Assembly (NCBI GenBank): GCA_035193785.1
Contig: CP136572.1
Location: 3,349,376-3,413,375 of the forward strand
Direction of reading: 5' to 3'
From: Planktothrix sp. GU0601_MAG3
Lineage (GTDB): Bacteria > Cyanobacteriota > Cyanobacteriia > Cyanobacteriales > Microcoleaceae
DNA: 64,000 nt
Part shown: positions 7,219-21,757 of the stretch, in pieces
Numbering within the stretch: position 1 is the stretch's first letter
How the letters are laid out: the number at the start of each line of letters is the position of its first letter
Position numbers and translations under genes: made by a program
Notes under the pieces: model-generated
What the model saw: the letters and a program-made list of their open reading frames with translations, nothing else
Database searches by the model: none
What the model was told of the DNA's origin: nothing

Positions 7219-8392
7219 ATGAATTATAATATTGAAGAAACAGTGATTGAACGCTACAAAGCGGGAGCCCAAACGGTACAACCTTCCCTCTGTTGTCCGG
7301 TGGAATATCAGGAAAATCAATATTTAGAAATTATTCCCCAGGAAATTATAGATAAAGACTATGGTTGTGGTGATCCCACCCGTTATGTTAACCCGGGGGA
7401 AACCGTGGTTGATTTAGGTTTCTGGGGCGGGTAAAAATTGTTATATGATCGCGCAAAAAGTCGGATCATCCGGTCAAGTTATCGGGGTAGATTTTAATGA
7501 TACAATGTTGGCTCTTTCCCGCAGCCATCAACCCGAAATAGCCCAAAAATTAGGCTATTTTAATACAAGTTTTGTTAAGGCAAAAATTCAGGATTTAGCC
7601 TTAGATTTAGATCAAGTGCAACGGTGGTTAACGGTTAATCCGATTCAATCAATTGAAGATCTGGGGAAATTTGAGTTAGAATGCGATCGCCTACGTCAAC
7701 AAAAGCCTTTAATTGCCGATAATAGTATTGATGTTGTTATTTCTAATTGTGTTTTAAATTTAGTTCGTCCCCAGGATAAGGATCAACTATTTCAAGAAAT
7801 TTATCGAGTTTTGAAACGGGGCGGACGGGCGGTTATTTCCGATATTGTTTGCGATCAAGATCCCACACCCAGAATTTTAAATGATCCCGATCTTTGGAGT
7901 GGTTGTATTGCTGGAGCTTTTCGGGAAAATGAGTTTTTAGAACGTTTTGAACAGGCCGGATTTTATGGGATTGAGATATTAGCCCGACAGGAAGAACCTT
8001 GGCAAGTGATTGATGGCATTGAGTTTCGTTCCCTAACAGTTTGTGCCTTTAAAGGCAAAGACGGCCCCTGTTTAGATGTAAACCAAGCCGTGATTTATAA
8101 AGGGCCATGGAAACAGGTAATGGACGATGACGGACATATTTTATATCGGGGGGAACGGATGGCAGTTTGTGATAAAACTTACCAAATTTATAATAACATA
8201 AACGGCCCCTATTATCAAGATATTTTAGGGATTTTACCCCATGAAACTATACCCCTAGAATCAGCCCCAGAATTCGATTGTAGACGGAATGCTATTCGTA
8301 AACCGGAAGAAACCAAGGGAGAGCATTATCACGTTACCATCACAAATTCCGATAATTCCTGTTGCGCTCCTGCGAGTTCTAGTTGTTGTTAA
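7219..8392 (+). CDS. arsM: arsenite S-adenosylmethionine methyltransferase (ArsM family). The frame is broken at ~7417-7423 (aGGTTTCTgg); the ORF track shows 7219..7434 and 7445..8392
   Basis: ERYKAGAQTV...CC N-terminal cysteine pair, SAM-binding motif VVDLG(S)GAGKNCY reconstituted by removing one T, DVVISNCVLNL, and a C-terminal Cys cluster. Confidence 0.7.
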
Positions 8393-8510: not shown

Positions 8511-9404
8511 ATGGTACTGTTTGAACGATATGAAGACCAGGGACATATTATATTTCACGGTGATTCTTTACCTATTTTGTCAAGTGAAATAACATCTGGA
8601 TCTGTAGATCTAATTTTTATTGATCCTCCCTACAATATCGGGAAACAATTCTCAAATTTCCACGACAAGTGGGAGTCTGATGAGGAATATGCAGTATGGG
8701 CTTATAAATTACTGGATGAGTGTATTCGGATATTAAAGCCTAATGGAACTTTATATGTGATGGCAAGTACCCAAGCAATGCCATATTTTGATCTTTATTT
8801 GAGAAATAAAATAGTAATTCTGAGTCGCATTATATGGCATTATGATAGTTCAGGAGTTCAAGCCAAAAAATACTTTGGATCAATGTATGAACCTCTACTT
8901 CACTGTGTTAAAAATAAGAGTAATTATGTATTTAACTCGAACAATATTAAAGTAGAAGCAAAAACAGGCGCACAAAGAAAGTTAATTGATTATAGAAAAT
9001 CCGTTCCTAGTCCCTATAATTCGGAAAAAGTACCGGGGAATGTCTGGTATTTTCCTCGTGTTAGATATCTTATGGAAGAATACGAAAACCATCCTTCCCA
9101 AAAACCTGAAGCATTGCTAGAGAGGATAATTCTTGCTAGTAGTCAGGAGGGGGGTATTGTACTTGATCCATTTGGAGGTACATTTACATCAGGTGCGGTA
9201 GCCAAACGATTAGGAAGAATTTCTATTAGTATAGAATCTCAAGAGGAGTATCTTAAAATTGGTCTAAGGCGAGTTTTAGGATGGCAAGAATATAGAGGTG
9301 ATAAGCTATTACCTCCACAGAAAAAACAGACTAGAAGAAATAAAAAAAATCAAAATTTTGATTTTATCCAAAAGGAGCTTTTAAATGCCGACAGTACAGC
9401 ATGA
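8511..9404 (+). CDS. type II DNA methyltransferase, beta-class amino-MTase (N6-adenine or N4-cytosine)
   Basis: Motif IV DPPY (IFIDPPYN) precedes motif I VLDPFGGTFTSG, which is the beta-class order. The region is AT-rich relative to its neighbours. Confidence 0.85.
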   Translation: MVLFERYEDQGHIIFHGDSLPILSSEITSGSVDLIFIDPPYNIGKQFSNFHDKWESDEEYAVWAYKLLDECIRILKPNGTLYVMASTQAMPYFDLYLRNKIVILSRIIWHYDSSGVQAKKYFGSMYEPLLHCVKNKSNYVFNSNNIKVEAKTGAQRKLIDYRKSVPSPYNSEKVPGNVWYFPRVRYLMEEYENHPSQKPEALLERIILASSQEGGIVLDPFGGTFTSGAVAKRLGRISISIESQEEYLKIGLRRVLGWQEYRGDKLLPPQKKQTRRNKKNQNFDFIQKELLNADSTA

Positions 9405-10543
9405 ATTTACCGATAAAATTACTGAAATTTTAAATATATATTTCCCTGAACAGGGAAGTAGAATTTTAGATTATAGCGAGTTATTACAATATCTAAATAT
9501 TAAGACAAAAGCTGCCAATCGTGGTTCCAAGTCACGAGCAGGATTGGCAAATCATTATGCTATATATGTCTTGGTCGAGGACTATCTAAATAATGAGTTT
9601 CATATTAATGGCAATTATAGTGATTATGAAGGGGCAAAGTTTACAACACTTCTTCAGAGACAAAGAGAACTTCCATTTGGAAGTAAACTCCAAAATCATG
9701 CCCTAAATCATCGACTAAATGAAGAATTCAAAAAATACTTTCCAACATCATCCTATGTACCTATAATCAGAGATGCTAAAACCAATAAATATTGGATTAA
9801 TGAAAATCTATTGAAATGTTCTATTGATAATTCTCAAATAAATATTGCTAAAGCGATTAAAGATATTATTGATGCTTATATAGCGGCGCGAGGTCAAGCA
9901 TTCAATGAATTTATGATCTATTGTCAACAGATGATCGATATTCAGAAACAAGATCCTTCACAAGCGATTAAATTTATTAAAGATTTACTTAAACCTAATA
10001 TAGATGCAAGAGTTTTTGAAATTGTCAGCTACGCCATTTTGAAGGAATATTATGCAGACCAACAAATATATTGGGGTTGGTCACCCGATGAACTAAACGT
10101 GGAATATTTAGTTTTATATAAAACGGGTCGAACCAACGCAAATGATGGGGGTATAGACTTTGTAATGAAACCCCTTGGAAGATTTTTTCAAGTTACAGAA
10201 ACTCTTGATGCAGGTAAATATTTTCTCGATATTGATAAGGTTTCAGAGATATCCGATTACTTTTGTTGTTAAAACAGAACATACCGCTGAAACAATCTTA
10301 AACAAAATTAGAGAAAAAGCGACGGAAAAATATAATATTAAAGCCATTGTTAAAAAATATATGGAATCTGTGGAAGAAGTGATTAATATTCCCGAACTGA
10401 TGAGTCATTTTGATAGAGTTTTAGAACGGGGTAAAGGTGCGGCTGTGATTGAAGAAATCGTTTTACAAAGTCGTGTGGAATTTAATGTAGAAGCAGAGGA
10501 ACAAGATATTTTGATCAACGAAAATGGGGTTGAAGATGAGTAG
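9385..10543 (+). CDS. putative type II restriction endonuclease partnered with the upstream MTase. The frame is broken at ~10239-10244 (aaGGTTTCag); the ORF track shows 9385..10272 and 10175..10543
   Basis: Overlaps the MTase stop by 20 nt. It has no detectable family similarity, as is typical for restriction endonucleases. The sequence EIVSYAILKEY...DGGIDFVMK could form a PD-(D/E)xK-like core. Removing one T joins ...DIDKVQRYPITFVVKTEH. Confidence 0.45.
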
Positions 10544-10706
10544 ACATTGGTATTGCCAGAAGTCGCCGTTTTATATTAAGAATTGTTTCAAATTAAAACA
10601 AAATCGAGATTTTTGAACAATGGCAAAAGGTTAATTGTATCTTAAACAATATCCAGAGTTGAACAATTCACCCAGATTAAAAAACACAATTTAAACAGGA
10701 CTTCAC

Positions 10707-13252
10707 AATGATTAATACTGTAACACCAGTTCCCAAAGGGATTGGCGTTCTATTAAAAGCACCTTTATCGGGGCATATTCTACCCATTGAACAGGTTTCC
10801 CGACCCCGTATTTGCTCAAAAAATGGTTGGGGATGGGATTTCTATTGACCCCGTGAGTCAGGTTTTAGTAGCGCCTTGTGATGGGGAAGTGATCCAACTG
10901 CATCCGTCCCATCATGCGGTGACATTAAAAACCCCTGAAGGGTTAGAAGTGTTGATGCACATTGGTTTAGATACGGTGACATTGCGGGGTCAAGGATTTA
11001 GCCCTAAAGTTAAAATGGGCGATCGCATTCAAACCGGCGATCCCTTAATCGAATTTGATCTGGATTATATAGCTCTAAATGCTAAAAGTTTGCTCACCCA
11101 AATTGTGATTACTAATAGTGATCAAGTGGCAAATTTTCAAGCTAGTTCGGGAGAGGTTATTGCAGGGGAAACAGTTATTTTAGAACTGATTTTCGCCCCA
11201 ACAGTAATTGAAAATAACCCAATTTCTGCCGAGACAATTACCTCGGATGAAATTATTATTCCTAATCCTACCGGACTCCACGCTAGACCTTCGGCCGTCT
11301 TAGCAAATTTAGCTAAAAAATATCAATCCAAAATTCGGTTACAACGGGGCGAGCAAGACGCCAATGTTAAGAGTGTGGTCGGGTTAATGGCCATGGAAGT
11401 GAATAACGGCGATCGGGTGGTTTTGGTGGCCCAGGGGCCAGATGCGGCCGAAGCGATCGCCGAACTCACCGAGGCCATGGTTTCCGGGTTAGGGGAAGAA
11501 GGCAGTCTGCCCATTTCCGCCCCCGCCAGCGTCGCCCAAGGAGAAATATCGAATCCGGCCCCCCGTCGGCGTTCGGACGATCCTAACGTGGTTTTAGGGG
11601 TAGCCGCATCCTCTGGAATAGCAGTTGGTCAAACCTTCCGGGTTAGGGAACAGGAAATTGAGGTGACGGAAAAGGCCGAAAACCCCAATACAGAACGGCG
11701 TAAGTTAGAAACGGCGATCGAACAGGCCCAATTAGAGGTAGAAGCGTTACGGGCCAATGTTCATGGCCAGGGCGATCCGAGTAAATCAGCTATTTTCGCC
11801 GCCCATCAAGAATTATTAGAAGATCCCGAATTAATTGAGATTGCCACCAGCACCATTGATAAGGGAAAAAGTGCCGCTTTTGCCTGGAAACAAGCCTTTA
11901 CAAATAGTGCAGCCCAACTCGCACAATTACAAAATGAGTTGTTATCCCAACGGGCGAATGATGTCCGAGATGTGGGGCAAAGGGTATTAAGAATTCTCAC
12001 CGGAGTTACCTTAACTGGGCCGATTTATCCTGAGAATACTATCTTAATTGCTGAGGATTTAACTCCTTCGGATATGGCAACCTTGGATCGATCAAAAGTG
12101 ATTGGATTCTGTACCGTTGCCGGGGGTTCGACCTCTCACGTTGCGATTTTAGCCCGTTCTATGGAAATTCCGGCGATCGCAGGAACGGAACCTCAAGTAT
12201 TAGATTTACCCGACGGCACACCTGTTATTTTAGATGGCAGTAAAGGTACATTAAAATTAAATCCCACGACGGCGGAAATGGAACGGGTTAAAACCCTACA
12301 AATTGAAATAGCTAAAAAACGGCAAACCGACTTAGCTAATGCCATGAAACCAGCCATCACCACCGATGGACACCGGATGGAAATTGTTGCCAATATTGGG
12401 GGCAAATCGGAGGCAGAAACTTCGGTGAAATTGGGAGGAGAAGGAGTCGGTTTATTGCGAACGGAATTTGTATTTATGGAGCGGACATCTGCCCCCACAG
12501 AAGACGAACAAACGGAAATATATAGTAGTATTGCCCGGGTTTTAGGGAAGGATAGACCGTTAATTATTCGGACGTTAGATGTAGGTGGAGATAAGCCCTT
12601 ACCCTATTTACCTATTCCCCATGAAGAAAACCCCTTTTTAGGAGAACGGGGAATCAGATTTGGCTTTGATCGTCCTGAACTTTTAAGAACCCAATTCCGC
12701 GCTATTTTAAGATCGGCGGAGGCGGGAACATTGCGAATTATGTTCCCGATGATTGCCCGATTAGAAGAAATTAGAATGGCAAAAGCTATGTTAGAAGAAG
12801 AACGGGAAAAGTTAAATCTTCCCCCGGTTTCCGTGGGCATTATGGTGGAAGTTCCCTCGGCGGCGGTGATGGCGGAACAATTTGCTAAAGAGGTGGATTT
12901 CTTCTCCATTGGAACTAATGATTTAACCCAATATACTTTAGCAATGGATCGGGGACATCCGAAACTTGCCCCCTATGTTGATGGGTTGAATCCGGCGGTT
13001 TTACGATTAATTGATTTAACGGTAAAAGGAGCAACTAAAGAGGGAAAATGGGTAGGGGTTTGTGGCGGAATTGCCAGCGACCCTCAAGCAATTCCTTTAT
13101 TAATTGGTTTGGGAGTGAAGGAATTAAGTGTTAGTGTTCCCAGTATTCCCACTATTAAGGCACAAATACGGGAATTAAGTTTAGTTGAGTGTCAAGAATT
13201 AGCCCAAAAAGCATTAAATTCAGAAACGGGGGCGGATGTGCGGGCACTTTAA
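10707..13252 (+). CDS. PTS multiphosphoryl transfer protein: EIIA(Glc)-HPr-Enzyme I fusion. The frame is broken at ~10794-10799 (caGGTTTCcc) and the ORF track starts at 10787
   Basis: EIIA-Glc domain (HAVTLKTPEGLEVLMHIGLDTV). HPr domain (GLHARPSAVLANLAKK). EI domain (GGSTSHVAILARSMEIPAIAGT; IGTNDLTQYTLAMDR). The N-terminus MINTVTPVPKG...IEQV(P)DPVFAQKMVGDG is restored by removing one T. Confidence 0.85.
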
Positions 13253-13253
13253 G

Positions 13254-13279
13254 TAGAGACGTGCCATGGCGCGTCTCTA
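13254..13279. repeat. 26 bp GC-rich near-palindrome TAGAGACGTGCCATGGCGCGTCTCTA (copy 1 of 4), 2 nt after the PTS-MTP stop codon
   Basis: Seen directly. Related copies at 15267, 16273 and 21727. Confidence 0.8.
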
Positions 13280-13292
13280 GCAGTTATCAGTT

Positions 13293-13356
13293 GTAGGGGC
13301 GGGTTTCATCAAGATGCGCGGTGATTAACAAAGGTCTAAAAAAACCCGCCCGTAAC
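13293..13356. repeat. MITE-like hairpin element GTAGGGGCGGGTT...AACCCGCCCGTAAC (copy 1 of 4)
   Basis: Terminal inverted repeats GGGGCGGGTT/AACCCGCCC. Homologous copies at 21588, 44598 and 44711. Confidence 0.7.
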
Positions 13357-13420
13357 AGTTATCGGTTGTTAGTAACAATATCTAATAGAGCCCTGAAGGG
13401 CTCACTACTTAAGAAAAACG

Positions 13421-15253
13421 ATGTTCAAAAACGCTTTTGCTTTATTACAAAAAATGGGAAAGTCTTTAATGCTTCCCGTTTCAGTCTTACCCATTGCTGG
13501 CCTATTATTGGGATTGGGTAGTGCTCGTTTAATTGAATTACAAAATCTGGCATTGGGAACAATTTCTTCCCCTAAATTTTGGTGGCTACCTGAAGGTTTA
13601 GCAACCATTATGAAGACTTCCGGGGATGCAATTTTTGGTAATTTACCGATTATTTTTGCGATTTCCGTTGCGATTGGATTTGCGGAAAATGACGGGGTGG
13701 CTGCTTTGGCTGCAACGGTGGGATTTGTGGTTTTTGTCGCTTCTTTAGGGGCTGCTTCTACCACTTTTTTTGGGTTGAATCCCGAACAATTAAAACCTGT
13801 TATGGGCATTCCTTCCTTAGATACGGGGGTATTTGGCGGGTTAATTATGGGCTGTGTTGCAGCCTATTTATTTAACCGTTATTTCCGAATTCAACTCCCT
13901 CAATATCTGGGATTTTTTGCGGGAAAACGATTTGTTCCAATTGTGACTTCCTTTGCGGCAATCGCCATGGGAATCCTAATGAGCGTGGTCTGGCCGCCCA
14001 TTGGAGCCGCGATTTCTACGGCTGCAAATGCCGCCGCATCCGGTGGAAATGTTAGTCTTACCGCCGCAATTTATGGGCTTGTAGAACGGTTATTATTACC
14101 CTTTGGATTACATCATATTTGGAATGTGCCTTTCTTTTTTCAAATCGGATCATTTCTTGATCCACTTACGAATAGAGTGGTCACTGGAGACATTAATCGC
14201 TTCTTTGCTGGCGACCCAACGGCCGGAATTTTAGGGGGTGCTTATTGGTTCAAAATGTTCGGTTTACCGGCGGCTGCGATCGCTATTTGGCGGACAGCAA
14301 AACCCAAAAATCGAGCGTTAACTGGAGGGATTATGATCTCTGCTGCTTTCACCTCTTTCCTAACCGGAATTACCGAGCCGATTGAATTTTCATTTATGTT
14401 CGTAGCCCCGCCTTTATACGCGATTCATGCAGTAATGGCGGGCTTTTGTGATTGGTTATTTGTTGCCTTGGGTGGACGCATGGGATTTACCTTTTCCCAG
14501 GGATTTATTGACTTTTTCCTGTTTAATGGATTAGGCACAAAGGCGTGGTTAATTCCCGCTTTGGGGCCGTTTTTTGCGGCTTTATATTTCTGTGTTTTTT
14601 ACTTTGGAATCCGACAGTTTAACTTCTCCACTCCGGGTCGAGAAGATGAGGTAGAAACCGTAACCAAAATTACCCCGGGAACAGGTGTAGGGAGTCTGGC
14701 AATGGAGTTAGTTCGAGCGTTTGGCGGACGGAGTAATATTGCGACGTTGGATGCTTGTATTACTCGGTTACGCATCACAGTTAATGATATTAAAAAGGTG
14801 AATAAAGCTCGACTTAAAGCATTAGGAGCATCGGGAGTTTTAGAAATAGGAAATAGTGCCCAAGCCATATTCGGCCCCCGTTCGGAAAATTTAAAAACGG
14901 ATATGATGGAATATCTCAAAAATGCCGGGTCGGAGGCAGATTTGGTTGAGGAAATTACACCGGAAATTACAGAGGTTAATTCAACGGAAGCAGCGATTTT
15001 AACCCCAATCATCTCGGATTCCGAGGCAAAAAATCGGATTCAGCAGATCGTGATTGCCTTGGGTGGAAAACAGAATATTCAGAGTCTTGATGCGGTGGCG
15101 TTAACTCGATTACGAGTTAAAGTTATTGATAATAACCTAGTTGATGAAGACGCATTAAAAGCCGCAGGTGTGGAAGGAGTTTTACGTTTACCCAATGGTA
15201 TATTACATCTATTAGTGGGTTTGGGTGCGGAACAATATGCAAAAAATCAGTAA
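13421..15253 (+). CDS. PTS glucose-family EIICB component (PtsG/NagE-like) with a second degenerate EIIB-like domain
   Basis: The N-terminus MFKNAFALLQKMGKSLMLPVSVLPIAGLLLG is almost identical to E. coli PtsG. EIIB domain DACITRLRI with the active-site Cys. A second EIIB-like repeat LDAVALTRLRV lacks the Cys. Confidence 0.9.
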   Translation: MFKNAFALLQKMGKSLMLPVSVLPIAGLLLGLGSARLIELQNLALGTISSPKFWWLPEGLATIMKTSGDAIFGNLPIIFAISVAIGFAENDGVAALAATVGFVVFVASLGAASTTFFGLNPEQLKPVMGIPSLDTGVFGGLIMGCVAAYLFNRYFRIQLPQYLGFFAGKRFVPIVTSFAAIAMGILMSVVWPPIGAAISTAANAAASGGNVSLTAAIYGLVERLLLPFGLHHIWNVPFFFQIGSFLDPLTNRVVTGDINRFFAGDPTAGILGGAYWFKMFGLPAAAIAIWRTAKPKNRALTGGIMISAAFTSFLTGITEPIEFSFMFVAPPLYAIHAVMAGFCDWLFVALGGRMGFTFSQGFIDFFLFNGLGTKAWLIPALGPFFAALYFCVFYFGIRQFNFSTPGREDEVETVTKITPGTGVGSLAMELVRAFGGRSNIATLDACITRLRITVNDIKKVNKARLKALGASGVLEIGNSAQAIFGPRSENLKTDMMEYLKNAGSEADLVEEITPEITEVNSTEAAILTPIISDSEAKNRIQQIVIALGGKQNIQSLDAVALTRLRVKVIDNNLVDEDALKAAGVEGVLRLPNGILHLLVGLGAEQYAKNQ

Positions 15254-15266
15254 TCAGTAATCAGTG

Positions 15267-15292
15267 TAGAGACGTGCCACGGCGCGTCTCTA
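15267..15292. repeat. 26 bp palindrome family copy 2 (TAGAGACGTGCCACGGCGCGTCTCTA), 14 nt after the EIICB stop
   Basis: Seen directly. Flanked by CAGTAAT and CTGATAA short repeats. Confidence 0.8.
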
Positions 15293-15346
15293 GTGGTTAT
15301 ATTTTAACTTAACTGATAACTGATAACTGTTTACTGATCACTGATA

Positions 15347-16055
15347 TTAGATGGGTTCAAAATCCTTATTAAAATCGAGTTGATTGGCTTGGATTCCTGG
15401 TAAAAATGCAATTAGTTCTTCCAAACCAGATTTGTTAACAAAAATACCCGCTCCGCTTCCATACTCTGATAAGGTTAAATCCTTAAAGGTAATCACATCA
15501 TTTGTTTTATAAACAAAGTAATCTTCACCTACAGTAAAATCACTAATAAAGGCAAAATCCGTTAAACCTGCGGCTGTATAATAGGTGCTAGAATCAGAAC
15601 TCCCTAAATAAAATCCATCTAATCCTGCACCCCCGACTAAGGTATCAATTTCACCTGCTCCTGGAGTAGCCGAATTAACATCAATCCCCGCAATAAAATC
15701 ATCCCCAAGATCACCGGAAACATAATCATTTCCCCCACCACCCCCTAAAAGATCAATACCTTGACCTCCAAACAAAGAATCATTATCGTTTCCTCCAAAT
15801 AATAAATCTGAAACCTAAGTTACCAAAAACTTGATTTTTACCTAATTCTCCCAGCAGCACATCGTCCCCTTTCCCTCCAAATAGCAAATCATTCCCCGGA
15901 CTACCATAAATAACATCTGCTCCTAGATTGCCATTCATCGTATCATCGCCTTCAAGACCTTGCAGGGTGTCATTTCCCCCTAAGCCGTAAATTTCATCGT
16001 TTTCAATCAATCCAACTAGATTATCATCCGCTTCAGTTCCTAAAATTAAAGTCAT
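15347..16055 (-). CDS. hemolysin-type (RTX) calcium-binding repeat protein. The frame is broken at ~15808-15815; the ORF track shows 15783..16055 and 15347..15775
   Basis: GGxGxDxL nonapeptide repeats throughout (LGGNDTLQGLEGDDTMNGNLGADVIYGSPGNDLLFGG...). Removing one A from ctGAAACc joins ...GNLG SDLLFGGNDNDSLFGGQG. Confidence 0.7.
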
Positions 16056-16272
16056 TTTTTTAATCAGTTATTAGTTATCAATTATCAGTGATAAAACAAT
16101 TGTTGGTTGTTGTCAACTAAAATTATAGCAATAGGGAATAGATAGGCAATAGGGAATAGGTAAATACTTACTATGGGCAGCTTTTAGCTTTCAAGAATGT
16201 CCTAACAGATACGGCAACTGCTATGATATTTATACTTGATTGACGGGATTTTTTTGATAGACTGAGAACCAC

Positions 16273-16298
16273 TGGAGACGCGCCATGGCACGTCTCTA
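16273..16298. repeat. 26 bp palindrome family copy 3 (inverse orientation), immediately 3' of the minus-strand ComF-family gene
   Basis: GGAGACGCGCCATGGCACGTCTCTA. Flanked by GGGAATAG and CTGATGA short repeats. Confidence 0.8.
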
Positions 16299-16304
16299 CA
16301 GTGA

Positions 16305-16970
16305 TTACTGATGACTGATGACTGATTTTTGAGTGGTGGCGACCGCCACAATACCCGCGACAGAAATTCCCGATTTTTGGAGTTGATCAATGGCCGATTT
16401 AACCGTCGCACCGGTTGTATAAATATCATCTAAAATTAAAACTGAACCATTAGGAGGGCGACGCCGGAAATCCTGACCAATATTAAACACACTTTGCATT
16501 TCTTTTAAACGTTGACTGGGCGAAAGTTCGTGCAGTGATTCCGTCTGTTTAATTCGTTCTAAACCATGAGAAGATAGGGATAAACCCGTGAATTGACAAA
16601 AACTTTTCGCTAACAATTCGGCTTGATTAAACCCGCGTTTTTTCAACTTCGCTGGGTGTAGGGGAATGGGTACTACGGTAACAGGGGAGATCCCCGACCC
16701 GGGCGTCGATAACCAAGTTTCTGCCAATCCATAGCCCAAAGGTTTAGCTAATTCGGTATGATGATTATATTTGATAGCCGCGATCGCTCGTTTGAGAACA
16801 TCTTTGTACTGTCCCCAGACACAAAGCGGCACCTCAGAGGTAAATTTGGCTCCAGGAGGAAACCGACAGCGCAGTAACTGTCGTTCACAATAATCACAAA
16901 GTTCTGTTGTTGCAGGTCGGTTACATAACGGACAGTTGGGTTTGAGAAATAAACTTAAGATCGCTTTCAC
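16305..16970 (-). CDS. ComF-family protein (double zinc-ribbon + phosphoribosyltransferase domain)
   Basis: N-terminal CPLCNRP...CDYCERQL Cys4 motif and C-terminal PRTase motif VLILDDIYTTGATV. Confidence 0.7.
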   Translation of the reverse strand: MKAILSLFLKPNCPLCNRPATTELCDYCERQLLRCRFPPGAKFTSEVPLCVWGQYKDVLKRAIAAIKYNHHTELAKPLGYGLAETWLSTPGSGISPVTVVPIPLHPAKLKKRGFNQAELLAKSFCQFTGLSLSSHGLERIKQTESLHELSPSQRLKEMQSVFNIGQDFRRRPPNGSVLILDDIYTTGATVKSAIDQLQKSGISVAGIVAVATTQKSVISHQ

Positions 16971-17015
16971 AGTTCAGGTTTTCAGATCAAGTTATTACTA
17001 AATTTAGTTGAAAGT

Positions 17016-19463
17016 GTGGATAATTTTTATGGGCTTCACGAAATTCAATCTCATCATCGCGATGTTGTCGGGGAGCCAGCCTTTTATTTAAGCCAATTGC
17101 TCCATCAGGGTTATCCGGTTTTACCCGGTTTTGTAGTTAAGAATCAGTTATTTTGGGAGATTTTACAAACCATTGATTGGTTACAACCCCTATTTGTCGA
17201 TTTACCCAAATCATCCCTCTATTTTGACATCAATCAACCCCGTCAATTACAAATTATTGCTCAACACCTTTGTCAACAACTGATTGATAGTCGTTTACCC
17301 CCGTCCTGGAGTCAGAAAATCCAAGACAGCATTGACCAATTAAAAGCCCCAGCGTTGATTTTTTATCCCAGTCTGAGCACTCCCCATCACTTACAAACAT
17401 CGGGACTTTTTAAATCGGTGATCAGTTGGGCGGGTACTCCCACAGCTTTATCGGGATTAAAACAAGCCTACTGTGAATTTTTTCGGGCTAAAAGTTTATT
17501 ATATTGGCAAAGATACAAGATAGAATTACAAGATTTATGTCCTGTGGTCTTAGTTCAACCCCTCCAGTCTACGATCGCTTCCGGTTTTGTTGAAATTCGC
17601 CCTCACGGTTGGGAAATAAACTCCACTTGGGGTTTGGAATTTTCCCTCTTATGGGGAGAAAGCCATCCTGATATTTATTTAATCCAACCCCAAACGGGAA
17701 TCATTCAACAACAACAATTAGGCTCTAAAACCATTCTCTATAATTTAAAATCTACTCCTGATCAACCCACAAAATATCCGATTCCCCAAAAACAATTCGC
17801 AATTCCAAATACTCAATTTCCAATTTATGCTACCTCGATTTCTGAACAGCAACAGGGATTTTCCCTAACTCCGAAACAACTACAAAAGTTAATCAATTTT
17901 ATCCAAAATATTACACAGTTTAATCCGGCAATTACTCGATTGGATTGGCGTTTATTACCACAGCCTCAAACTCAAGAACCCCAATTCTATTTTGTCGGTG
18001 TTCACTGTTCCGAAAGCAGTCCCCATTCTAGTTCTGTCATTTCCCATTCTAGCCCCCATCAACAGCATTTTCAAGGACTAGCTCTAGCATCGGGAAAATC
18101 TCAAGGAACTGCATATATTCTAACGGAAACACAACCCATACCCTCACAATTACCGGAGAATACCGTGTTAGTCGTTCCGGCAATTACTTGGGATTATTTA
18201 CCCCTATTAAAGCAGACTGTTGCTATTGTTGCTGAAAAGGGAGGAATGACCAGTCATGGCGCAATTGTGGCGCGAGAATTGGGTATACCTGCTGTTTGTG
18301 GAATCGTGAATGCAACCCGGGAAATAAAAATGGGTGAGTCTATTTTTGTTGATGGAAATTATGGGGAAGTTTATGTGATTAAGCCTGATTATCCGGTTGA
18401 TCAAAAGTTTGTCAAACGAAGTTTTGAACCACTGAAACCGACTCGAAATATTACCTATGCAAATTCTACCCCCTTGATGGTTAATATTAGTCAATCAAGT
18501 TCTATCCAGCGACTTCATTCTTTACCCATTGATGGGGTAGGTCTATTGCGATCAGAATTGATCGCTCTTGAAATATTAGAACGTTCTGAATATCCGACCA
18601 AAAATTCCTGGGTTTCTCAGAAAGTTGGGGACAAATTATATGATTTTAATACCTGGATTTCATCCCAAAAACAGCAAAAGTTTGTTCAAGAAATGACTGA
18701 ACTTATTCATCAGATGGCTATGGTTTTATCCCCTAGACCCGTTTATTATCGCTCCTTGGATTTAAGAGAAATAGAACAATCGGTATCGGGATTAAATTAT
18801 TTTTACCCCCTCCTGGGTAGTGGGGAGAGTAAGAATAGGAAATTATCCTCTCAGGATAGTATGAATAGGGGAAATTTTCCAGCTTCAGATTCTCCATCTT
18901 TAGAACGTCTGATTTTATTTGATTTAGAAATTCAAGTATTATTAAGATTGTATGAATCGGGAAATAAAAATATTCATTTAATTATACCATTTATGCGTTC
19001 TGTTGAAGAATTTACTATTTATAAAAAGCGGATCGAAGCATCGGAATTAATCCATTATCCTGAGTTGCAATTGTGGATTATGGCGGAAGTTCCGTCGATT
19101 CTATTTTTATTACCTGATTATGTGAAAGCTGGGGTTCAAGGAATTTCAATTGGAACCAATGATCTGACCCAATTATTATTTGGAATTGATCGAAATAAAA
19201 TGCAGGTATTCCCAGGTTTATATGAAAGTAATCCCGCTTTAAAAAAAGCGATAAAACAGTTAATTGAAATGGCAAAAACAGCGAATATTCCCTGTTCAAT
19301 CTGTGGAGATGCTCCAGCTTTATATCCCGAATTAATTGCAGATTTAGTTCAGTGGGGAATTACGTCGATTTCCGTTAATTTAGATGCCGTTGAATCGACC
19401 TATATGGCGATCGCTAAATCAGAAAAACCCATTCCCCTAGAAACCTCCCACCATCATCTTTAG
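17016..19463 (+). CDS. PEP-utilizing enzyme, phosphoenolpyruvate synthase-like (divergent)
   Basis: Central mobile His domain (GGMTSHGAIVARELGIPAVCG). C-terminal PEP/pyruvate TIM-barrel (MAEVPS...GISIGTNDLTQLLFGIDRN). N-terminal region weakly PPDK_N-like. The domain order is the same as in PpsA. Confidence 0.6.
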   Translation: MDNFYGLHEIQSHHRDVVGEPAFYLSQLLHQGYPVLPGFVVKNQLFWEILQTIDWLQPLFVDLPKSSLYFDINQPRQLQIIAQHLCQQLIDSRLPPSWSQKIQDSIDQLKAPALIFYPSLSTPHHLQTSGLFKSVISWAGTPTALSGLKQAYCEFFRAKSLLYWQRYKIELQDLCPVVLVQPLQSTIASGFVEIRPHGWEINSTWGLEFSLLWGESHPDIYLIQPQTGIIQQQQLGSKTILYNLKSTPDQPTKYPIPQKQFAIPNTQFPIYATSISEQQQGFSLTPKQLQKLINFIQNITQFNPAITRLDWRLLPQPQTQEPQFYFVGVHCSESSPHSSSVISHSSPHQQHFQGLALASGKSQGTAYILTETQPIPSQLPENTVLVVPAITWDYLPLLKQTVAIVAEKGGMTSHGAIVARELGIPAVCGIVNATREIKMGESIFVDGNYGEVYVIKPDYPVDQKFVKRSFEPLKPTRNITYANSTPLMVNISQSSSIQRLHSLPIDGVGLLRSELIALEILERSEYPTKNSWVSQKVGDKLYDFNTWISSQKQQKFVQEMTELIHQMAMVLSPRPVYYRSLDLREIEQSVSGLNYFYPLLGSGESKNRKLSSQDSMNRGNFPASDSPSLERLILFDLEIQVLLRLYESGNKNIHLIIPFMRSVEEFTIYKKRIEASELIHYPELQLWIMAEVPSILFLLPDYVKAGVQGISIGTNDLTQLLFGIDRNKMQVFPGLYESNPALKKAIKQLIEMAKTANIPCSICGDAPALYPELIADLVQWGITSISVNLDAVESTYMAIAKSEKPIPLETSHHHL

Positions 19464-19520
19464 GGTCGGGGCGAGAAGACCCCGCCCTCAACCCCAGGGC
19501 TGTTTCATTCTTTGTAGGGG

Positions 19521-19640
19521 CAATCCCCCCGTGGTTGCCCCAATCCCCCCGTGGTTGCCCCAATCCCCCCGTGGTTGCCCCAATCCCCCCGTGGTTGCCC
19601 CAATCCCCCCGTGATTGCCCCAATCCCTGAAACGCCTGCA
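19521..19640. repeat. tandem array of five 20 bp units (CAATCCCCCCGTGGTTGCCC) plus a degenerate sixth, bracketed by a 17 bp inverted repeat (CAGGGCTGTTTCATTCT at 19495 and AGAATGAAACAGCCCTG at 19701)
   Basis: Seen directly. ORF-track entries 19414..19731 and 19488..19724 are translations of the repeat. Confidence 0.85.
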
Positions 19641-19740
19641 AATCGGGGATTGGGAGGGTAGGCACGGGGGCACTACCCCTACAAAACCCGGGTTTCCCTG
19701 AGAATGAAACAGCCCTGCCCTCAACCCTCAACCCTCAACC

Positions 19741-20248
19741 TTAATATTGAGTCCGTTGGAAGGCTTCTTCCGGGGAAATATTACCGTAAATTACCGATAA
19801 AATTCCGGGTAAATAGTCATCCATCGTTGAAACACTGGTATAGATTAAATGTTTAATTAATGCCGGATTTAGAGCCGCATCTTCCGCATCTAAACTGGTT
19901 TTATATCGAAGTTCCCCATCTTGGAAATTCATTTCAAAATTTCCCACCACTGTCCCATAGTTGAGCAGGGTAATAAATGTCGCCATATTGTAGCGTTTAT
20001 ATTCAGGAAACCTTCACCGGACAAATGGAATAAACCGCAATTTGCCGTTCTTCTTCCCTAACAATTGTATAACAATCAAATCGGCCGTTTTTGCCCTCTA
20101 CACCTAATGCCAAGACTCGCCGATGTTCAATTTCTCTATAAACCCAACCATCTAGGGTCATAAAGTCAATGAGCACATCAAATACAGCCCGATCTGATGG
20201 GTATTCTTGAGAAAGTAATTCCGGGTTTTGTTCTGACACAGTAAACAT
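19741..20248 (-). CDS. YbjN-domain protein (putative sensory transduction regulator family). The frame is broken at ~20006-20011 (caGGAAACc); the ORF track shows two 81 aa halves
   Basis: Removing one A gives ...DCYTIVREEERQIAVYSICPVKVPEYKRYNMATFITLLNYGTVVGNFEMNFQDGELRYKT, a typical ~165 aa YbjN fold signature. Confidence 0.55.
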
Positions 20249-20297
20249 CCTTAATTTTCCTATATCTACAACGTTCTTTGAGTAGTGGCTTCAACAA

Positions 20298-20900
20298 TTA
20301 CGCTCGATGGGAGTTATCCGGCGTTGGCATATTATACGCAATTTTATTTGCTTTGGCACTCCGGTAAACAATATTAGTTAATTCATAATAAATGGGGGGA
20401 TACAAGGAGTAAAGTTGACCATAATAAAATCGATTTTTATATCGGTTATAATCTTGAATTTTTTTTCTAATTCCCGATCCTAAACGAGAATTTTTTTCAA
20501 AGGTTTTATCACTCTGTTCAATTGTCCATTTAATTTCTTCACCCTCAACCCCGCGACTAATTAAATCAAAACACTGTTCAAGAACTTGACTAATTCTTTC
20601 CCTGTCTTTAGATTGAAATTCTAATCCCTCTTGATCAGAATTTCTGGGTAATAACTGCAACCGATAGCATCCATTGGGATCAGCATGGGGATACCAACCG
20701 AGTTTTAAGGTATAACCCTTTTGATTAATAATCCAGTCTGTTTCCTTAAACTCAATTGATTGGAGTACGAGCAAGTTTTCATTATAAAATTGCTGATTGA
20801 GAATGCGACCATCCTGTACAAACGGATCTTCATCCCCAAAAGAATTATGAGTGATTGCCCAACCACTAGGAATATTCAGACGAACAAGGTTTGATTGCAT
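20298..20900 (-). CDS. hypothetical protein (200 aa), likely co-transcribed with the downstream YbjN-like gene
   Basis: Long ORF on the same strand as YbjN with a 50 nt gap. No family recognised. Confidence 0.4.
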   Translation of the reverse strand: MQSNLVRLNIPSGWAITHNSFGDEDPFVQDGRILNQQFYNENLLVLQSIEFKETDWIINQKGYTLKLGWYPHADPNGCYRLQLLPRNSDQEGLEFQSKDRERISQVLEQCFDLISRGVEGEEIKWTIEQSDKTFEKNSRLGSGIRKKIQDYNRYKNRFYYGQLYSLYPPIYYELTNIVYRSAKANKIAYNMPTPDNSHRA

Positions 20901-21122
20901 AAATTAGGATTGACTGGATCAAGAATCAAGTAAACTCAGCTATCTGGTGTGCCGTTAGCAGCCATTAATATCGCTTTCTGCCCACTTCTGACGAATTATA
21001 ATGCAACTTCTGATCAATATCATGTTTTTTTATAGACCGCAAGGCAAATATCCCCGTTACCTGTTTCGGATCTAAGGCTGATGGGCGGATTAATGGAGGT
21101 GTGATTGCATTGAAGTGAGTTT

Positions 21123-21573: not shown

Positions 21574-21587
21574 ATCAGTCATCAGTT

Positions 21588-21649
21588 GTAGGGGCGGGTT
21601 TCATCGAGATTTAGGTAATTAGCTCATATCTAACAGAACCCGCCCTTAC
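21588..21649. repeat. MITE-like hairpin element copy 2 (GTAGGGGCGGGTT...AACCCGCCCTTAC), inserted at the 3' end of the secreted-protein gene
   Basis: Same terminal inverted repeats as 13293..13356. Confidence 0.7.
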
Positions 21650-21726
21650 AAGATTAGCCAAAAACCCACGATTTATATTGATGAATAGGGGAAACTTTAT
21701 TCTTTTGAATGAGCAAATAAAAGAGA

Positions 21727-21752
21727 GAGAGACGCGCCGTGGCACGTCTCTA
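21727..21752. repeat. 26 bp palindrome family copy 4 (GAGAGACGCGCCGTGGCACGTCTCTA), 5 nt after the ppc stop (minus strand)
   Basis: Seen directly. Confidence 0.8.
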
Positions 21753-21757
21753 CAAGA

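What the first reader, a model, noticed from the sequence alone, without database searches (positions are those of the whole stretch)
10707..15292. Complete glucose-family PTS (EIIA-HPr-EI fusion + PtsG-like EIICBB') in a cyanobacterial chromosome, bracketed by palindromic elements and next to an R-M cassette
PEP-dependent sugar phosphotransferase systems are generally reported as rare or absent in cyanobacteria. Here a multiphosphoryl transfer protein with the unusual domain order EIIA(Glc)-HPr-EI sits directly upstream of an EIICB whose N-terminus is nearly identical to enterobacterial PtsG. That EIICB carries an extra Cys-less EIIB-like domain. Both genes are followed within 2-14 nt by copies of the same 26 bp palindrome. 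The R-M pair lies immediately upstream. A PEP-synthase-like gene, PEP carboxylase and, further away, KDPG aldolase are nearby. Together this suggests an acquired sugar-uptake module wired into PEP metabolism. The substrate (glucose, GlcNAc or maltose) cannot be assigned from sequence.
Basis: partly seen in the sequence, partly recalled or inferred. Interest (0 to 1): 0.7.

Follow-up and report, generated by a model that had tools for sequence, protein, structure and literature searches.

The report
Conserved glucose PTS cassette in Planktothrix
A two-gene, self-contained glucose phosphotransferase uptake system is encoded here in a Planktothrix cyanobacterium, but it is a conserved, already annotated cassette shared with many filamentous cyanobacteria and about a dozen other phyla, not a recent island, and the frameshift in its first gene is most likely an assembly error.

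Summary
The two genes exist as described. Gene 1 (10708-13252) is an EIIA(Glc)-HPr-EI multiphosphoryl transfer protein. Gene 2 (13421-15253) is a PtsG-type EIIC-EIIB with an extra Cys-less EIIB-fold domain.

- Gene 1 carries a +1 frameshift (extra T at about 10796). At least eight other conserved genes in the window, including PEPC and psbC, are split the same way. The source is a long-contig MAG (Planktothrix sp. GU0601_MAG3), so this is most likely assembly error.
- The cassette is not an island. It sits at a syntenic locus in other Planktothrix, has host-like codon usage and dN/dS of about 0.1. It occurs in 25 or more cyanobacterial species that form one clade (bootstrap 100 for both genes). 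The same architecture, second EIIB included, occurs in about a dozen other phyla.
- The 26-nt palindrome is a dispersed 3'-end hairpin (four copies, absent at these sites in relatives). The R-M pair lies in a strain-variable, compositionally foreign segment.

Substrate can be inferred. All glucose-contact residues of E. coli IIC(Glc) are identical, and NCBIfam glucose-specific cut-offs are passed while the GlcNAc cut-off is not.

The finding is moderately interesting. Literature says cyanobacteria lack a PTS, and the tandem EIIB is undescribed for the glucose family.

The parts
10708..13252 (+). Gene for the multiphosphoryl transfer protein EIIA(Glc)-HPr-EI. It is 847 aa once the extra T is removed. 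As it stands it reads frame 1 for codons 1-30, then frame 2 from 10787/10798.
   Evidence: Pfam and NCBIfam. Homologues of 847-852 aa begin MINTVTPV. It is 96% identical to the intact P. paucivesiculata PCC 9631 protein.
10796..10798 (+). T-run carrying one extra T relative to all relatives (GGTTTCCC against GGTTCCC). This is the frameshift site.
   Evidence: DNA alignment A1, metagenome contig L089, tblastn frame switch.
10790..11125 (+). EIIA(Glc) domain. Its first ~14 profile positions lie upstream in the other frame. Active-site His codons are at 10913-10915 and 10958-10960.
   Evidence: PF00358. Alignment to E. coli IIA(Glc) 1f3g with both His conserved.
11243..11479 (+). HPr domain. The phospho-His codon is at 11279-11281.
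   Evidence: PF00381. Alignment to solved HPr proteins with GLHARP conserved.
11597..13177 (+). Enzyme I module. His189-equivalent codon at 12137-12139 and Cys502-equivalent codon at 13061-13063.
   Evidence: PF05524, PF00391, PF02896 and TIGR01417 at 576 bits against a 341.7 cut-off. Alignment to E. coli EI.
13253..13280 (+). Hairpin copy 1, immediately after the MTP stop codon.
13278..13369 (+). Second small palindromic unit (arms 13294-13306 and 13342-13354), flanked by 17-nt direct repeats, in the MTP-EIICB spacer.
   Evidence: It is duplicated in relative L034.
13421..15253 (+). PtsG-type permease EIIC-EIIB-EIIB' (610 aa). It is identical to GenBank WRH65501.1.
13457..14443 (+). EIIC membrane domain. 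The GITE Glu319 codon is at 14375-14377 and His231/232 at 14111-14116. All glucose-contact residues are conserved.
   Evidence: PF02378. Residue mapping onto E. coli IIC(Glc) using PMC11393339.
14678..14920 (+). Canonical EIIB domain with the phospho-acceptor Cys446 (codon 14756-14758) and the TRLR arginines.
15020..15241 (+). Second, Cys-less EIIB-fold domain (B'). Val559 (codon 15095-15097) sits in place of the Cys, and TRLR is kept.
15266..15293 (+). Hairpin copy 2, 13 nt after the EIICB stop codon. It is embedded between inverted ATCAGTN heptamer arrays (15243-15348).
16273..16299 (-). Hairpin copy 3, just 3' of the ComF-like gene. It is not part of the PTS and shows the element is dispersed.
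21727..21753 (-). Hairpin copy 4, just 3' of PEPC and followed by a U-rich tract. It is not part of the PTS.
8511..10543 (+). Type II R-M pair: methyltransferase 8511-9404 and restriction enzyme split into 9385-10272 and 10175-10543. It is low-GC, lies in the strain-variable upstream segment, and is not linked to the PTS.
   Evidence: It is absent upstream of the PTS in P. agardhii.

Best explanation
The locus encodes a self-contained, glucose-specific PEP:sugar phosphotransferase system made of two co-transcribed genes.

**Inferred mechanism**
- PEP phosphorylates the EI module (His451 in 821-aa ORF numbering).
- The phosphoryl group passes within the same polypeptide to the HPr His165 and then to the EIIA(Glc) His58.
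- It then moves to Cys446 of the first EIIB domain of the permease.
- Finally it moves to the 6-OH of glucose held in the PtsG-like elevator-type EIIC, releasing glucose-6-phosphate inside the cell.
- The C-terminal second EIIB domain cannot accept phosphate in cyanobacteria because it lacks the Cys. It most likely acts as a protein-protein docking or regulatory module for the fused donor protein, by analogy with IIB' of FruA.

**Evolutionary reading**
- The cassette is an old, mobile two-gene unit present in many phyla.
- Cyanobacteria hold one monophyletic lineage of it. In Planktothrix it is a conserved chromosomal core locus under purifying selection.

**Features that are not part of the system**
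- The frameshift in this window is most likely an indel error of a long-read MAG assembly.
- The flanking palindromes are copies of a genome-wide 3'-end RNA hairpin element.
- The R-M cassette is an unrelated strain-specific insertion.

**Shown here:** domain content, catalytic and sugar-contact residues, synteny, phylogeny, selection and composition. **Inferred:** actual transport activity, the role of B', and the artefact status of the frameshift.
For: **Domains, family cut-offs and residues**
- Pfam order EIIA_1, HPr, EI in gene 1 and EIIC plus 2x EIIB in gene 2.
- TIGR02002 scores 657 against a 591.8 cut-off and the PtsG equivalog scores 650 against 647. The GlcNAc model scores 471 against 553. 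Nine other clades of the cassette behave the same way.
- Full-length alignment to E. coli PtsG.
- E202, R203, H211, H212, N215, K257, G295, T297, E298, F337 and S338 are identical in the window and in all 21 cyanobacterial sequences. The residue list comes from PMC11393339.
- Phospho-acceptor His and Cys residues are conserved in EIIA, HPr, EI and EIIB.

**Second EIIB (B')**
- It is a duplicate of B with the EIIB(Glc) fold: TM 0.77-0.82 to 3bp3, 1o2f_B and 3bp8_C.
- TRLR is kept in every sequence that has the domain. The Cys is kept in 20 of the 67 sequences that have the domain and in no cyanobacterium.

**Not an island**
- Window 10482-24085 is syntenic at 87-95% nucleotide identity with P. 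agardhii, and the upstream side differs.
- The cassette is also present in L034, L090, PCC 9631 and PCC 11201.
- GC, GC3 and RSCU are typical of the window, whereas the R-M pair is atypical.
- dN/dS is 0.08 for the MTP and 0.12 for the EIICB.

**Distribution and phylogeny**
- The top 120 homologues of each protein are 66-96% identical. Every one that carries a source name is cyanobacterial, but most carry no name.
- The genome scan finds the MTP, usually with EIIC-B-B' directly downstream, in 25 or more cyanobacterial species. It also finds it in Proteobacteria, Chloroflexota, Actinomycetota, Acidobacteriota, Verrucomicrobiota, Myxococcota and others.
- Burkholderia sp. RPE67 carries the same pair at 54% and 56% identity.
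- Cyanobacteria are monophyletic with bootstrap 100 in both gene trees.

**Frameshift as artefact**
- Four of eight syntenic genes switch frame relative to P. agardhii.
- psbC, the AMIN-amidase, Flv, the restriction enzyme, PEPC and VIT/VWA are also split.
- The source contig is 3.5 Mb from a MAG.
- All relatives and a metagenome contig carry the intact allele.

**Hairpins**
- There are four copies, each just 3' of a stop codon and co-oriented with that gene.
- The sense RNA forms an 11-bp stem using a G.U pair, while the antisense strand has an A.C mismatch.
- They are absent at these sites in P. agardhii and in L034.
Against: - No experiment. Nothing shows transport or phosphorylation in any cyanobacterium.
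- As the sequence stands, the EIIA domain is truncated, and I could not inspect reads.
- The repaired 847-aa protein is not in the protein collection as an exact sequence. No independent assembly confirms the intact allele in this strain.
- A genome paper cites earlier work that organic-carbon uptake by Planktothrix is low (PMC9398003).
- No sugar-responsive regulator or glucose-catabolic gene is consistently adjacent, either in cyanobacteria or elsewhere.
- Specificity is inferred from similarity to E. coli PtsG. One gating residue differs (Q219 to F), and a 16-residue insertion follows the N-terminal helix.
- The trees are neighbour-joining only.
Confidence: 0.75

Rival explanations
1. One reading: a recently acquired sugar-uptake island, delimited by the two palindromes, brought in together with the R-M cassette and functionally wired to the neighbouring PEP-metabolism genes.
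For: - The cassette is phylogenetically patchy and shared with many phyla.
- The segment immediately upstream is variable and carries an R-M pair and a TnpB.
- Identical palindromes follow both genes.
Against: - The locus is syntenic in other Planktothrix, and only the upstream side varies.
- Codon usage and GC are host-like, while the R-M pair's are not.
- dN/dS is about 0.1.
- Cyanobacterial copies are monophyletic.
- The palindromes also follow two unrelated genes and are missing at the PTS in close relatives.
- There is no tRNA gene in the window. No integrase domain turned up among the upstream ORFs scanned.
- Adjacency to ppsA and ppc is not kept in Thermoleptolyngbya or in Leptolyngbya PCC 7375.
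Confidence: 0.04
2. The frameshift is real. In this strain the MTP gene is a fresh pseudogene, or makes only an N-terminally truncated product from an internal start, so the PTS is non-functional here.
For: - The sequence as given has the extra T, and the assembly's gene call is an 809-aa product.
- No independent assembly of this strain covers the site. L088 covers only the EIICB gene.
- The repaired protein is not in the collection.
Against: - At least eight other conserved genes in the same 64 kb are split by small indels, including ppc and psbC. Established knowledge says a photoautotroph needs both.
- Three of the four indels mapped against P. agardhii lengthen a short homopolymer by one base.
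- The source is a long-contig MAG.
- The rest of the gene is 96% identical to an intact orthologue with no further lesion and shows strong purifying selection.
Confidence: 0.12
3. The cassette is a GlcNAc (NagF/NagE-like), maltose or other sugar PTS rather than a glucose PTS.
For: - The fused EI-HPr-EIIA plus EIIBC layout is best characterised for the GlcNAc system NagFE of Ralstonia eutropha (PMC3222305).
- Members occur in chitinolytic Chitinibacteraceae.
- Two of the non-cyanobacterial neighbourhoods contain SIS or amidohydrolase genes.
Against: - The GlcNAc-specific NCBIfam cut-off is failed by the window protein and by nine other clades, while the glucose-specific cut-off is passed.
- It is 56% identical to PtsG with every glucose contact identical.
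- Maltose and alpha-glucoside models score far below their cut-offs.
- Neighbourhoods more often contain GH1, LamB, OprB, PGM, GH15 and PFK.
Confidence: 0.1
4. In cyanobacteria the cassette works mainly as a sensor or regulator, reporting external glucose or the PEP:pyruvate ratio through the phosphorylation state of EIIA or B', rather than as a nutritional uptake route.
For: - PTS proteins are well-known regulators in other bacteria (established knowledge).
- Organic-carbon uptake by Planktothrix is reported to be low (PMC9398003).
- The conserved Cys-less B' keeps its TRLR loop, which suggests a binding function.
- E. coli EIIB is a docking site for the repressor Mlc (PDB 3bp8).
Against: - The full transport machinery and the sugar-binding site are conserved under purifying selection.
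- No partner regulator is encoded nearby.
- Sensing and transport are not mutually exclusive.
Confidence: 0.15

Closest known systems
E. coli glucose PTS (PtsI, PtsH, Crr, PtsG)
   Same: - Same phosphoryl relay and the same protein families.
- The EIICB is 56% identical over the whole of PtsG.
- All glucose-contact residues, Cys421, Arg424/426 and the GITE motif are identical.
- The EIIA, HPr and EI active-site residues are conserved.
   Different: - EI, HPr and EIIA are fused into one polypeptide in the order EIIA-HPr-EI and are dedicated to one permease.
- The permease has a 16-residue insertion after the N-terminal helix.
- It also has a ~110-residue C-terminal extension with a second, Cys-less EIIB domain.
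- Gating residue Q219 is Phe.
- No Mlc, SgrS or Crp context is evident.
NagF/NagE GlcNAc PTS of Ralstonia eutropha (Cupriavidus necator) H16
   Same: An autonomous two-gene PTS. It has a fused EI-HPr-EIIA protein plus an EIIBC permease, and it works independently of the general EI and HPr (PMC3222305).
   Different: - The window permease and all sampled cassette members fail the GlcNAc-specific model and pass the glucose-specific one.
- There is no nagA, nagB or porin context in Planktothrix.
- I did not compare with the NagE or NagF sequences directly.
Fructose PTS FruB (FPr/MTP) with FruA (IIB'BC)
   Same: - A fused phosphoryl-transfer protein is paired with a permease that carries a duplicated IIB domain.
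- That duplicated domain is reported to act in protein-protein interaction rather than phosphoryl transfer (PMC6872149, PMC2405797).
- MTPs with an N-terminal IIA(Glc) are thought to derive from FruB-type MTPs (PMC2405797).
   Different: - It belongs to a different EII family (Fru, not Glc).
- The duplicated domain is N-terminal in FruA and C-terminal here.
- The B' function here is untested.
Uncharacterised orthologous cassette, e.g. Burkholderia sp. RPE67 plasmid p1 BRPE67_DCDS08030/08040
   Same: - Same gene order and same domain architecture, including a Cys-less second EIIB (LEPLAATRLRV).
- Identity is 54% for the MTP and 56% for the permease.
- It is annotated as PEP-protein phosphotransferase plus glucose-specific IIBC.
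   Different: It lies in a different phylum and on a chromid. It lacks the 16-residue N-terminal insertion. It is likewise not characterised experimentally, as far as I could find.

Membership tests
PTS glucose-glucoside (Glc) family, PtsG-type EIICB | Matches the curated glucose-specific IIBC models above their cut-offs | tested here: met
   TIGR02002 scores 657.2 against a 591.8 cut-off. NF008301 (PtsG) scores 650.3 against 647.
PTS glucose-glucoside (Glc) family, PtsG-type EIICB | Sugar-binding residues of IIC(Glc): E202, R203, H211, H212, N215, K257, T297, E298, F337 | tested here: met
   All are identical in the window protein and in 21 of 21 cyanobacterial homologues. The residue list is from PMC11393339.
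PTS glucose-glucoside (Glc) family, PtsG-type EIICB | Phosphorylatable Cys and flanking Arg residues in EIIB (Cys421, Arg424, Arg426) | tested here: met
   Cys446, Arg449 and Arg451. These positions are invariant in all 73 aligned sequences.
PTS phosphoryl-transfer chain (EI, HPr, EIIA-Glc) | Active-site His in EIIA (two), in HPr and in EI, and the catalytic Cys in EI | tested here: met
   Alignments to solved IIA(Glc), HPr and EI.
PTS phosphoryl-transfer chain (EI, HPr, EIIA-Glc) | Uninterrupted reading frame | tested here: inconclusive
   There is a +1 T at 10796-10798 in the window only. It is probably an assembly error, given at least eight other split genes. Reads were not available.
PTS (any) | PEP-dependent transport coupled to phosphorylation of the sugar | not testable with these tools
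   This needs uptake or phosphorylation assays, or complementation.
GlcNAc PTS (NagE / NagFE type) | Matches the GlcNAc-specific IIBC model above its cut-off | tested here: not met
   TIGR01998 scores 471 against a 553.2 cut-off for the window. It scores 456-520 for nine other cassette clades.
GlcNAc PTS (NagE / NagFE type) | Clustered with nagA/nagB-type catabolic genes | tested here: not met
   None are in the window or in the Planktothrix, Thermoleptolyngbya or Leptolyngbya loci. Only 2 of 138 neighbouring ORFs elsewhere match SIS or Amidohydro_1.
Recently acquired genomic island | Absent from the same locus in close relatives | tested here: not met
   It is present at the syntenic locus in P. 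agardhii and in two metagenome contigs, and in L034 and L090. Intact orthologues exist in PCC 9631 and PCC 11201.
Recently acquired genomic island | Deviant base composition or codon usage | tested here: not met
   GC is 0.46 and 0.43 against 0.423 +/- 0.055 for the window. RSCU distance is 0.34 and 0.32 against 0.41 +/- 0.13.
Recently acquired genomic island | Bounded by integration hallmarks (tRNA gene, integrase, terminal repeats specific to the element) | tested here: not met
   There is no tRNA gene in the window and no integrase domain among the ORFs scanned between 95 and 19463. The repeats are a dispersed family that also follows two unrelated genes.
FruA-type IIB' (non-phosphorylatable duplicated IIB) | Extra IIB-fold domain lacking the phospho-acceptor Cys, next to a functional IIB | tested here: met
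   The resemblance is functional only. The domain belongs to the Glc-type EIIB family (PF00367), not to the fructose family, so this is not membership of the FruA family.
REP-like / 3'-end hairpin repeat | Multiple near-identical intergenic palindromes, oriented with the upstream gene and stable as RNA | tested here: met
   There are four copies and none are expected by chance. Sense-strand folding energy is -18 to -24 kcal/mol, and the antisense strand is weaker.
Intrinsic terminator | GC-rich stem followed directly by a U-tract | tested here: inconclusive
   The consensus scan does not call the hairpins as terminators. Only copy 4 is followed closely by a U-rich tract.
Type II restriction-modification system | Adjacent methyltransferase and restriction endonuclease | tested here: met
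   MTase_II E = 6.5e-134. REase_II matches profile positions 1-288 and 267-374 in two overlapping ORFs, so it is split.

The most novel reading that the evidence does not exclude
The EIIA(Glc)-HPr-EI plus EIIC-EIIB-EIIB' cassette may be a distinct, so far uncharacterised subclass of glucose PTS spread across a dozen or more phyla.

- Its second EIIB domain was an ancestral second phospho-acceptor. It is still Cys-bearing in Acidobacteriota, Verrucomicrobiota and Competibacteraceae.
- In cyanobacteria, Actinomycetota, Chloroflexota and Betaproteobacteria that domain has become a non-phosphorylatable docking or regulatory module for the fused donor protein.
- In filamentous cyanobacteria the cassette would be a functional PEP-driven glucose uptake or sensing route. 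That would overturn the textbook statement that oxygenic phototrophs lack a PTS.
Probability: 0.25. Interest if true: 0.6.

Novelty: new member of a known kind. Interest (0 to 1): 0.35.

Why it matters
**Cyanobacterial physiology**
- Accounts of cyanobacterial sugar uptake that I could read consider only GlcP or GlcH permeases and ABC systems (PMC10515406, PMC9958718).
- A conserved, selected PtsG-type system in Planktothrix, Leptolyngbya, Nodosilinea, Thermoleptolyngbya, Kovacikia, Chroococcus and others therefore adds an overlooked candidate route. It could serve mixotrophy, glucose re-uptake or carbon sensing in bloom- and mat-forming cyanobacteria.

**PTS biology**
- It offers a natural series of Cys-bearing and Cys-less versions for testing what such pseudo-domains do.

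**What it does not change**
- None of this is a new kind of system. The genes are already named correctly in GenBank.

Tried and rejected
- **Programmed +1 frameshifting at GUU-UCC.** Rejected. All relatives have the in-frame sequence, and many unrelated genes in the window are split in the same way.
- **Independent confirmation of the frameshift allele.**
  - The only other contig with this strain's exact EIICB (Logan SRR25183167) does not reach the site.
  - The metagenome pattern scan found one contig, and it carries the intact allele.
- **Naming the nearest non-cyanobacterial relatives from the 50%-identity representative library.** The hits carried almost no names. The genome-contig scan and the plasmid tblastn were informative instead.
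- **Inferring substrate from gene neighbourhood in other phyla.** There is no constant context, only a weak glucose/glucoside flavour.
- **Palindromes as canonical intrinsic terminators.** Not supported by the consensus scan.
- **Known RNA families in 10000-17100.** None found.
- **Literature on a cyanobacterial PTS.** No paper in the searchable library describes one. Barabote and Saier 2005 is not held.

Full report
**What is in the sequence**

Two co-directional genes fill 10708-15253.

The first gene carries Pfam PTS_EIIA_1, PTS-HPr, PEP-utilisers_N, PEP-utilizers and PEP-utilizers_C in that order. It passes the NCBIfam enzyme I model, at 576 bits against a 341.7 cut-off.

The second gene carries PTS_EIIC and two PTS_EIIB stretches.
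- It aligns from its first residue to residue 501 with the whole of E. coli PtsG (E = 5e-161). The first 35 residues are almost identical, followed by a 16-residue insertion.
- Overall identity to PtsG is 56%.
- Residues 502-610 are extra. They contain a copy of the EIIB domain (47% identity to the first, E = 7e-12).
- In that copy Val559 replaces the phospho-acceptor Cys, while the TRLR loop is kept.
- An AlphaFold model of residues 511-610 has a core pLDDT of 85-90. It matches solved E. coli EIIB(Glc) structures best, with TM 0.77-0.82 and rmsd 1.3-2.2 A.

The gene does not read through from its ATG at 10708.
- After 30 codons (MINTVTPVPKGIGVLLKAPLSGHILPIEQV) the frame runs into a stop. The rest of the protein is in the next frame.
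- Homologues are 847-852 residues long and begin with the same peptide.
- DNA alignment shows one extra T in the window, GGTTTCCC against GGTTCCC.
- A metagenome contig with the same flanks has the intact version.

I then compared the whole syntenic stretch with P. agardhii. Four of eight genes change frame in the window:
- the MTP,
- an RTX-like gene (+1 A at 15811),
- a YbjN-like gene (+1 A at 20008),
- PEP carboxylase (+2 at 24021).

Elsewhere in the window several more genes are cut into adjacent or overlapping ORFs:
- psbC, an AMIN-amidase and a flavodiiron protein,
- the restriction enzyme,
- PEPC and a VIT/VWA protein.

The window comes from a 3.54-Mb contig of GCA_030545275.1, Planktothrix sp. 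GU0601_MAG3. Its gene caller produced an 809-residue MTP plus a 46-residue upstream ORF.

A photoautotroph cannot plausibly have lost ppc and psbC (established knowledge). I therefore read all these lesions, including the one in the MTP, as indel errors of a long-read MAG assembly. This is an inference, because reads were not available.

Two further results fit that reading. Apart from the one base, the MTP is 96% identical to the intact protein of P. paucivesiculata PCC 9631. dN/dS against P. agardhii is 0.08 for the MTP and 0.12 for the permease.

**Substrate and mechanism**

The permease passes both curated glucose-specific models and fails the GlcNAc, maltose and alpha-glucoside models. 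Nine other clades of the same cassette behave identically.

The residues that hold glucose in the cryo-EM structures of E. coli IIC(Glc) are E202, R203, H211, H212, N215, K257, T297, E298 and F337, plus G295 and S338 (PMC11393339). All are identical in the window protein and in all 21 cyanobacterial homologues. Only the gate residue Q219 is Phe.

The phospho-acceptor residues are all in place:
- two His in EIIA, one in HPr, and His and Cys in EI,
- Cys446 with Arg449 and Arg451 in EIIB.

The simplest reading is a self-contained glucose PTS. The relay runs from PEP to the EI module, then to the HPr module, the EIIA module, EIIB Cys446 and finally glucose in the EIIC.

The Cys-less B' cannot take part in that relay. 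By analogy with the IIB' of FruA, I propose it docks or regulates the fused donor. IIB' of FruA is reported to act in protein-protein interaction rather than phosphoryl transfer (PMC6872149, PMC2405797). This step is inferred, not shown.

**Island or resident?**

Evidence from within Planktothrix:
- Window 10482-24085 is collinear with P. agardhii and two metagenome contigs at 87-95% nucleotide identity. The shared order is MTP, EIICB, RTX-like, ComF-like, PpsA-like, YbjN, a 200-aa ORF and PEPC.
- Upstream of 10482 the genomes differ. P. agardhii has toxin-antitoxin and DUF433 genes there. The window has an IS605-type TnpB, an ArsM-like methyltransferase and the type II R-M pair.
- The PTS genes have typical GC, GC3 and codon usage for the window. 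The R-M genes are clearly atypical, with GC 0.35 and 0.32 and RSCU distance 0.69 and 0.66.
- There is no tRNA gene in the window.

So the R-M pair is a separate strain-specific insertion, and the PTS is a resident core locus of the genus.

Evidence from beyond the genus:
- The top 120 homologues of each protein are 66-96% identical. All those that carry a source name are cyanobacterial, though most carry none. Named genera include Planktothrix, Phormidium, Kovacikia, Leptolyngbya, Nodosilinea, Thermoleptolyngbya, Trichocoleus, Elainella and Aphanothece.
- In Thermoleptolyngbya and Leptolyngbya PCC 7375 the two genes are adjacent but the flanks are unrelated. Linkage to ppsA and ppc is therefore genus-specific.

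**The wider family**

It also returned full-length EIIA-HPr-EI proteins at 55-65% identity from these groups:
- Competibacteraceae, Chromatiaceae and Chitinibacteraceae,
- other Burkholderiales,
- Anaerolineae, Actinomycetota and Acidobacteriota,
- Verrucomicrobiota, Polyangia and Methylomirabilota,
- Phycisphaerales, Desulfobulbia and Lentisphaeria.

In nearly all loci with enough sequence, an EIICB that aligns through the second EIIB lies directly downstream. Burkholderia sp. RPE67 plasmid p1 has the same pair, at 54% identity for the MTP and 56% for the permease.

Neighbour-joining trees of both proteins recover the cyanobacteria as one clade with bootstrap 100. The two trees are broadly congruent.

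In the second EIIB, the Cys is retained in 20 of the 67 sequences that have the domain:
- Cys kept: Acidobacteriota, Verrucomicrobiota, Competibacteraceae, Methylomirabilota, Phycisphaerales and Desulfogranum.
- Cys replaced: all cyanobacteria (Val, Ala or Thr), Actinomycetota, Chloroflexota, Chromatiaceae and Betaproteobacteria.

This suggests a true tandem duplication that later degenerated.

Neighbouring genes in other phyla show no constant context. There is only a weak glucose/glucoside flavour: GH1, LamB, OprB, PGM, GH15 and PFK.

**The palindromes**

- The 26-nt palindrome occurs four times in the window, each within a few bases 3' of a stop codon and in the orientation of that gene.
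- On the sense strand it folds into an 11-bp stem with a 4-nt loop using a G.U pair (-18 to -24 kcal/mol). The antisense strand has an A.C mismatch and is weaker. This points to a role in RNA.
- The consensus scan does not call it an intrinsic terminator.
- At the same sites, P. agardhii and the closest relative L034 lack it. They carry other small repeats instead.

It is a dispersed, apparently mobile 3'-end hairpin family, not a boundary of the PTS.

**Comparison with what is known**

- MTPs with an N-terminal IIA(Glc) are a described class, thought to derive from FruB-type proteins (PMC2405797).
- An autonomous fused system, NagF/NagE, is characterised in Ralstonia eutropha (PMC3222305).
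- Two accounts of cyanobacterial sugar uptake mention no PTS (PMC10515406 and PMC9958718).
- I found no paper on a cyanobacterial PTS.
- GenBank already names these proteins PtsG / glucose-specific IIBC and multiphosphoryl transfer protein.

**Verdict**

This is a real, correctly recognised glucose-family PTS. It is ordinary in kind, resident rather than recently acquired, and probably intact in vivo.

Its modest interest lies in two points:
- the overlooked presence of a conserved PTS in many filamentous cyanobacteria,
- the uncharacterised tandem EIIB.

Noticed in passing
window 807-850, 10175-10272, 10796, 15811, 20008, 24021, 35922-35925, 55774-55868, 57757-57830: Many conserved genes are cut into two adjacent or overlapping ORFs by small indels. 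They are VIT/VWA, the type II restriction enzyme, the MTP, an RTX-like gene, YbjN, PEPC, a flavodiiron protein, an AMIN-amidase and psbC. The pattern fits indel errors of a long-read MAG assembly (GCA_030545275.1). Any pseudogene call in this window should be distrusted.
   Followed up: partly
window 13253-13280, 15266-15293, 16273-16299 (-), 21727-21753 (-): A 26-28 nt hairpin family, GTAGAGACGTGCCAYGGCGCGTCTCTA. Each copy sits just 3' of a stop codon and is co-oriented with that gene. The stem is perfect only on the sense RNA, through a G.U pair. It is absent at the same sites in P. agardhii and in the closest relative, so it appears to be a mobile 3'-end element.
   Followed up: partly
window 15243-15348 and 13278-13369; L034 1985-2215 and 4040-4150: Arrays of ATCAGTN heptamers (STRR-like) flank the hairpins in inverted orientation. 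A second small palindromic unit (GGGGCGGGTTT ... AAACCCGCCC) with 17-nt direct repeats sits in the MTP-EIICB spacer and is duplicated in relative L034. The intergenic spacers of this locus turn over quickly between Planktothrix lineages.
   Followed up: no
window 4910-6040: An IS605-family OrfB/TnpB (Cas12f-like) gene lies in the strain-variable segment upstream of the PTS.
   Followed up: no
window 7445-8392: An ArsM-like SAM methyltransferase matches the model only from position 79 (241 bits against a 500 cut-off). It may be N-terminally truncated or another split gene.
   Followed up: no
window 62301-63434: A C-5 cytosine DNA methyltransferase with low GC3 (0.24) lies near the end of the window. 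It may belong to a second R-M system.
   Followed up: no
L034 (DATNRE010000839.1): This contig is labelled Candidatus Obscuribacterales. It is collinear with the Planktothrix locus at 81-94% nucleotide identity, and its MTP is 98% identical. It is probably a mis-binned or mislabelled Planktothrix contig.
   Followed up: partly
P0002 / L090 (GCA_015657685.1), HPr-EI linker: This Planktothrix MTP has a ~45-residue stretch of unrelated sequence (GQMRPKRSPNSPRPCVPGWGKK...) between otherwise identical flanks. It looks like a compensated double frameshift in the linker.
   Followed up: no
alignment of cassette EIICBs (loci L025-L084), second EIIB: Where the second EIIB keeps a Cys (motif VDACAETRLR), there is one more residue between the Cys and TRLR than in the canonical DACITRLR loop. 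It is open whether this Cys is phosphorylated.
   Followed up: no
L007 / L017 (Leptolyngbya sp. PCC 7375) 12735-16597: A HAD-family hydrolase gene starts at the EIICB stop codon. It is followed by a histidine phosphatase and a glycogen phosphorylase. This is a possible functional link to glucose-phosphate or glycogen metabolism that Planktothrix does not share.
   Followed up: no
L033, L036, L041, L050, L059, L064 (Chromatiaceae and related): The EIIC of these cassettes aligns in two pieces (residues ~4-118 and ~123-607) separated by about 280-290 nt in most of these loci. This suggests an insertion in, or interruption of, the N-terminal part of EIIC.
   Followed up: no
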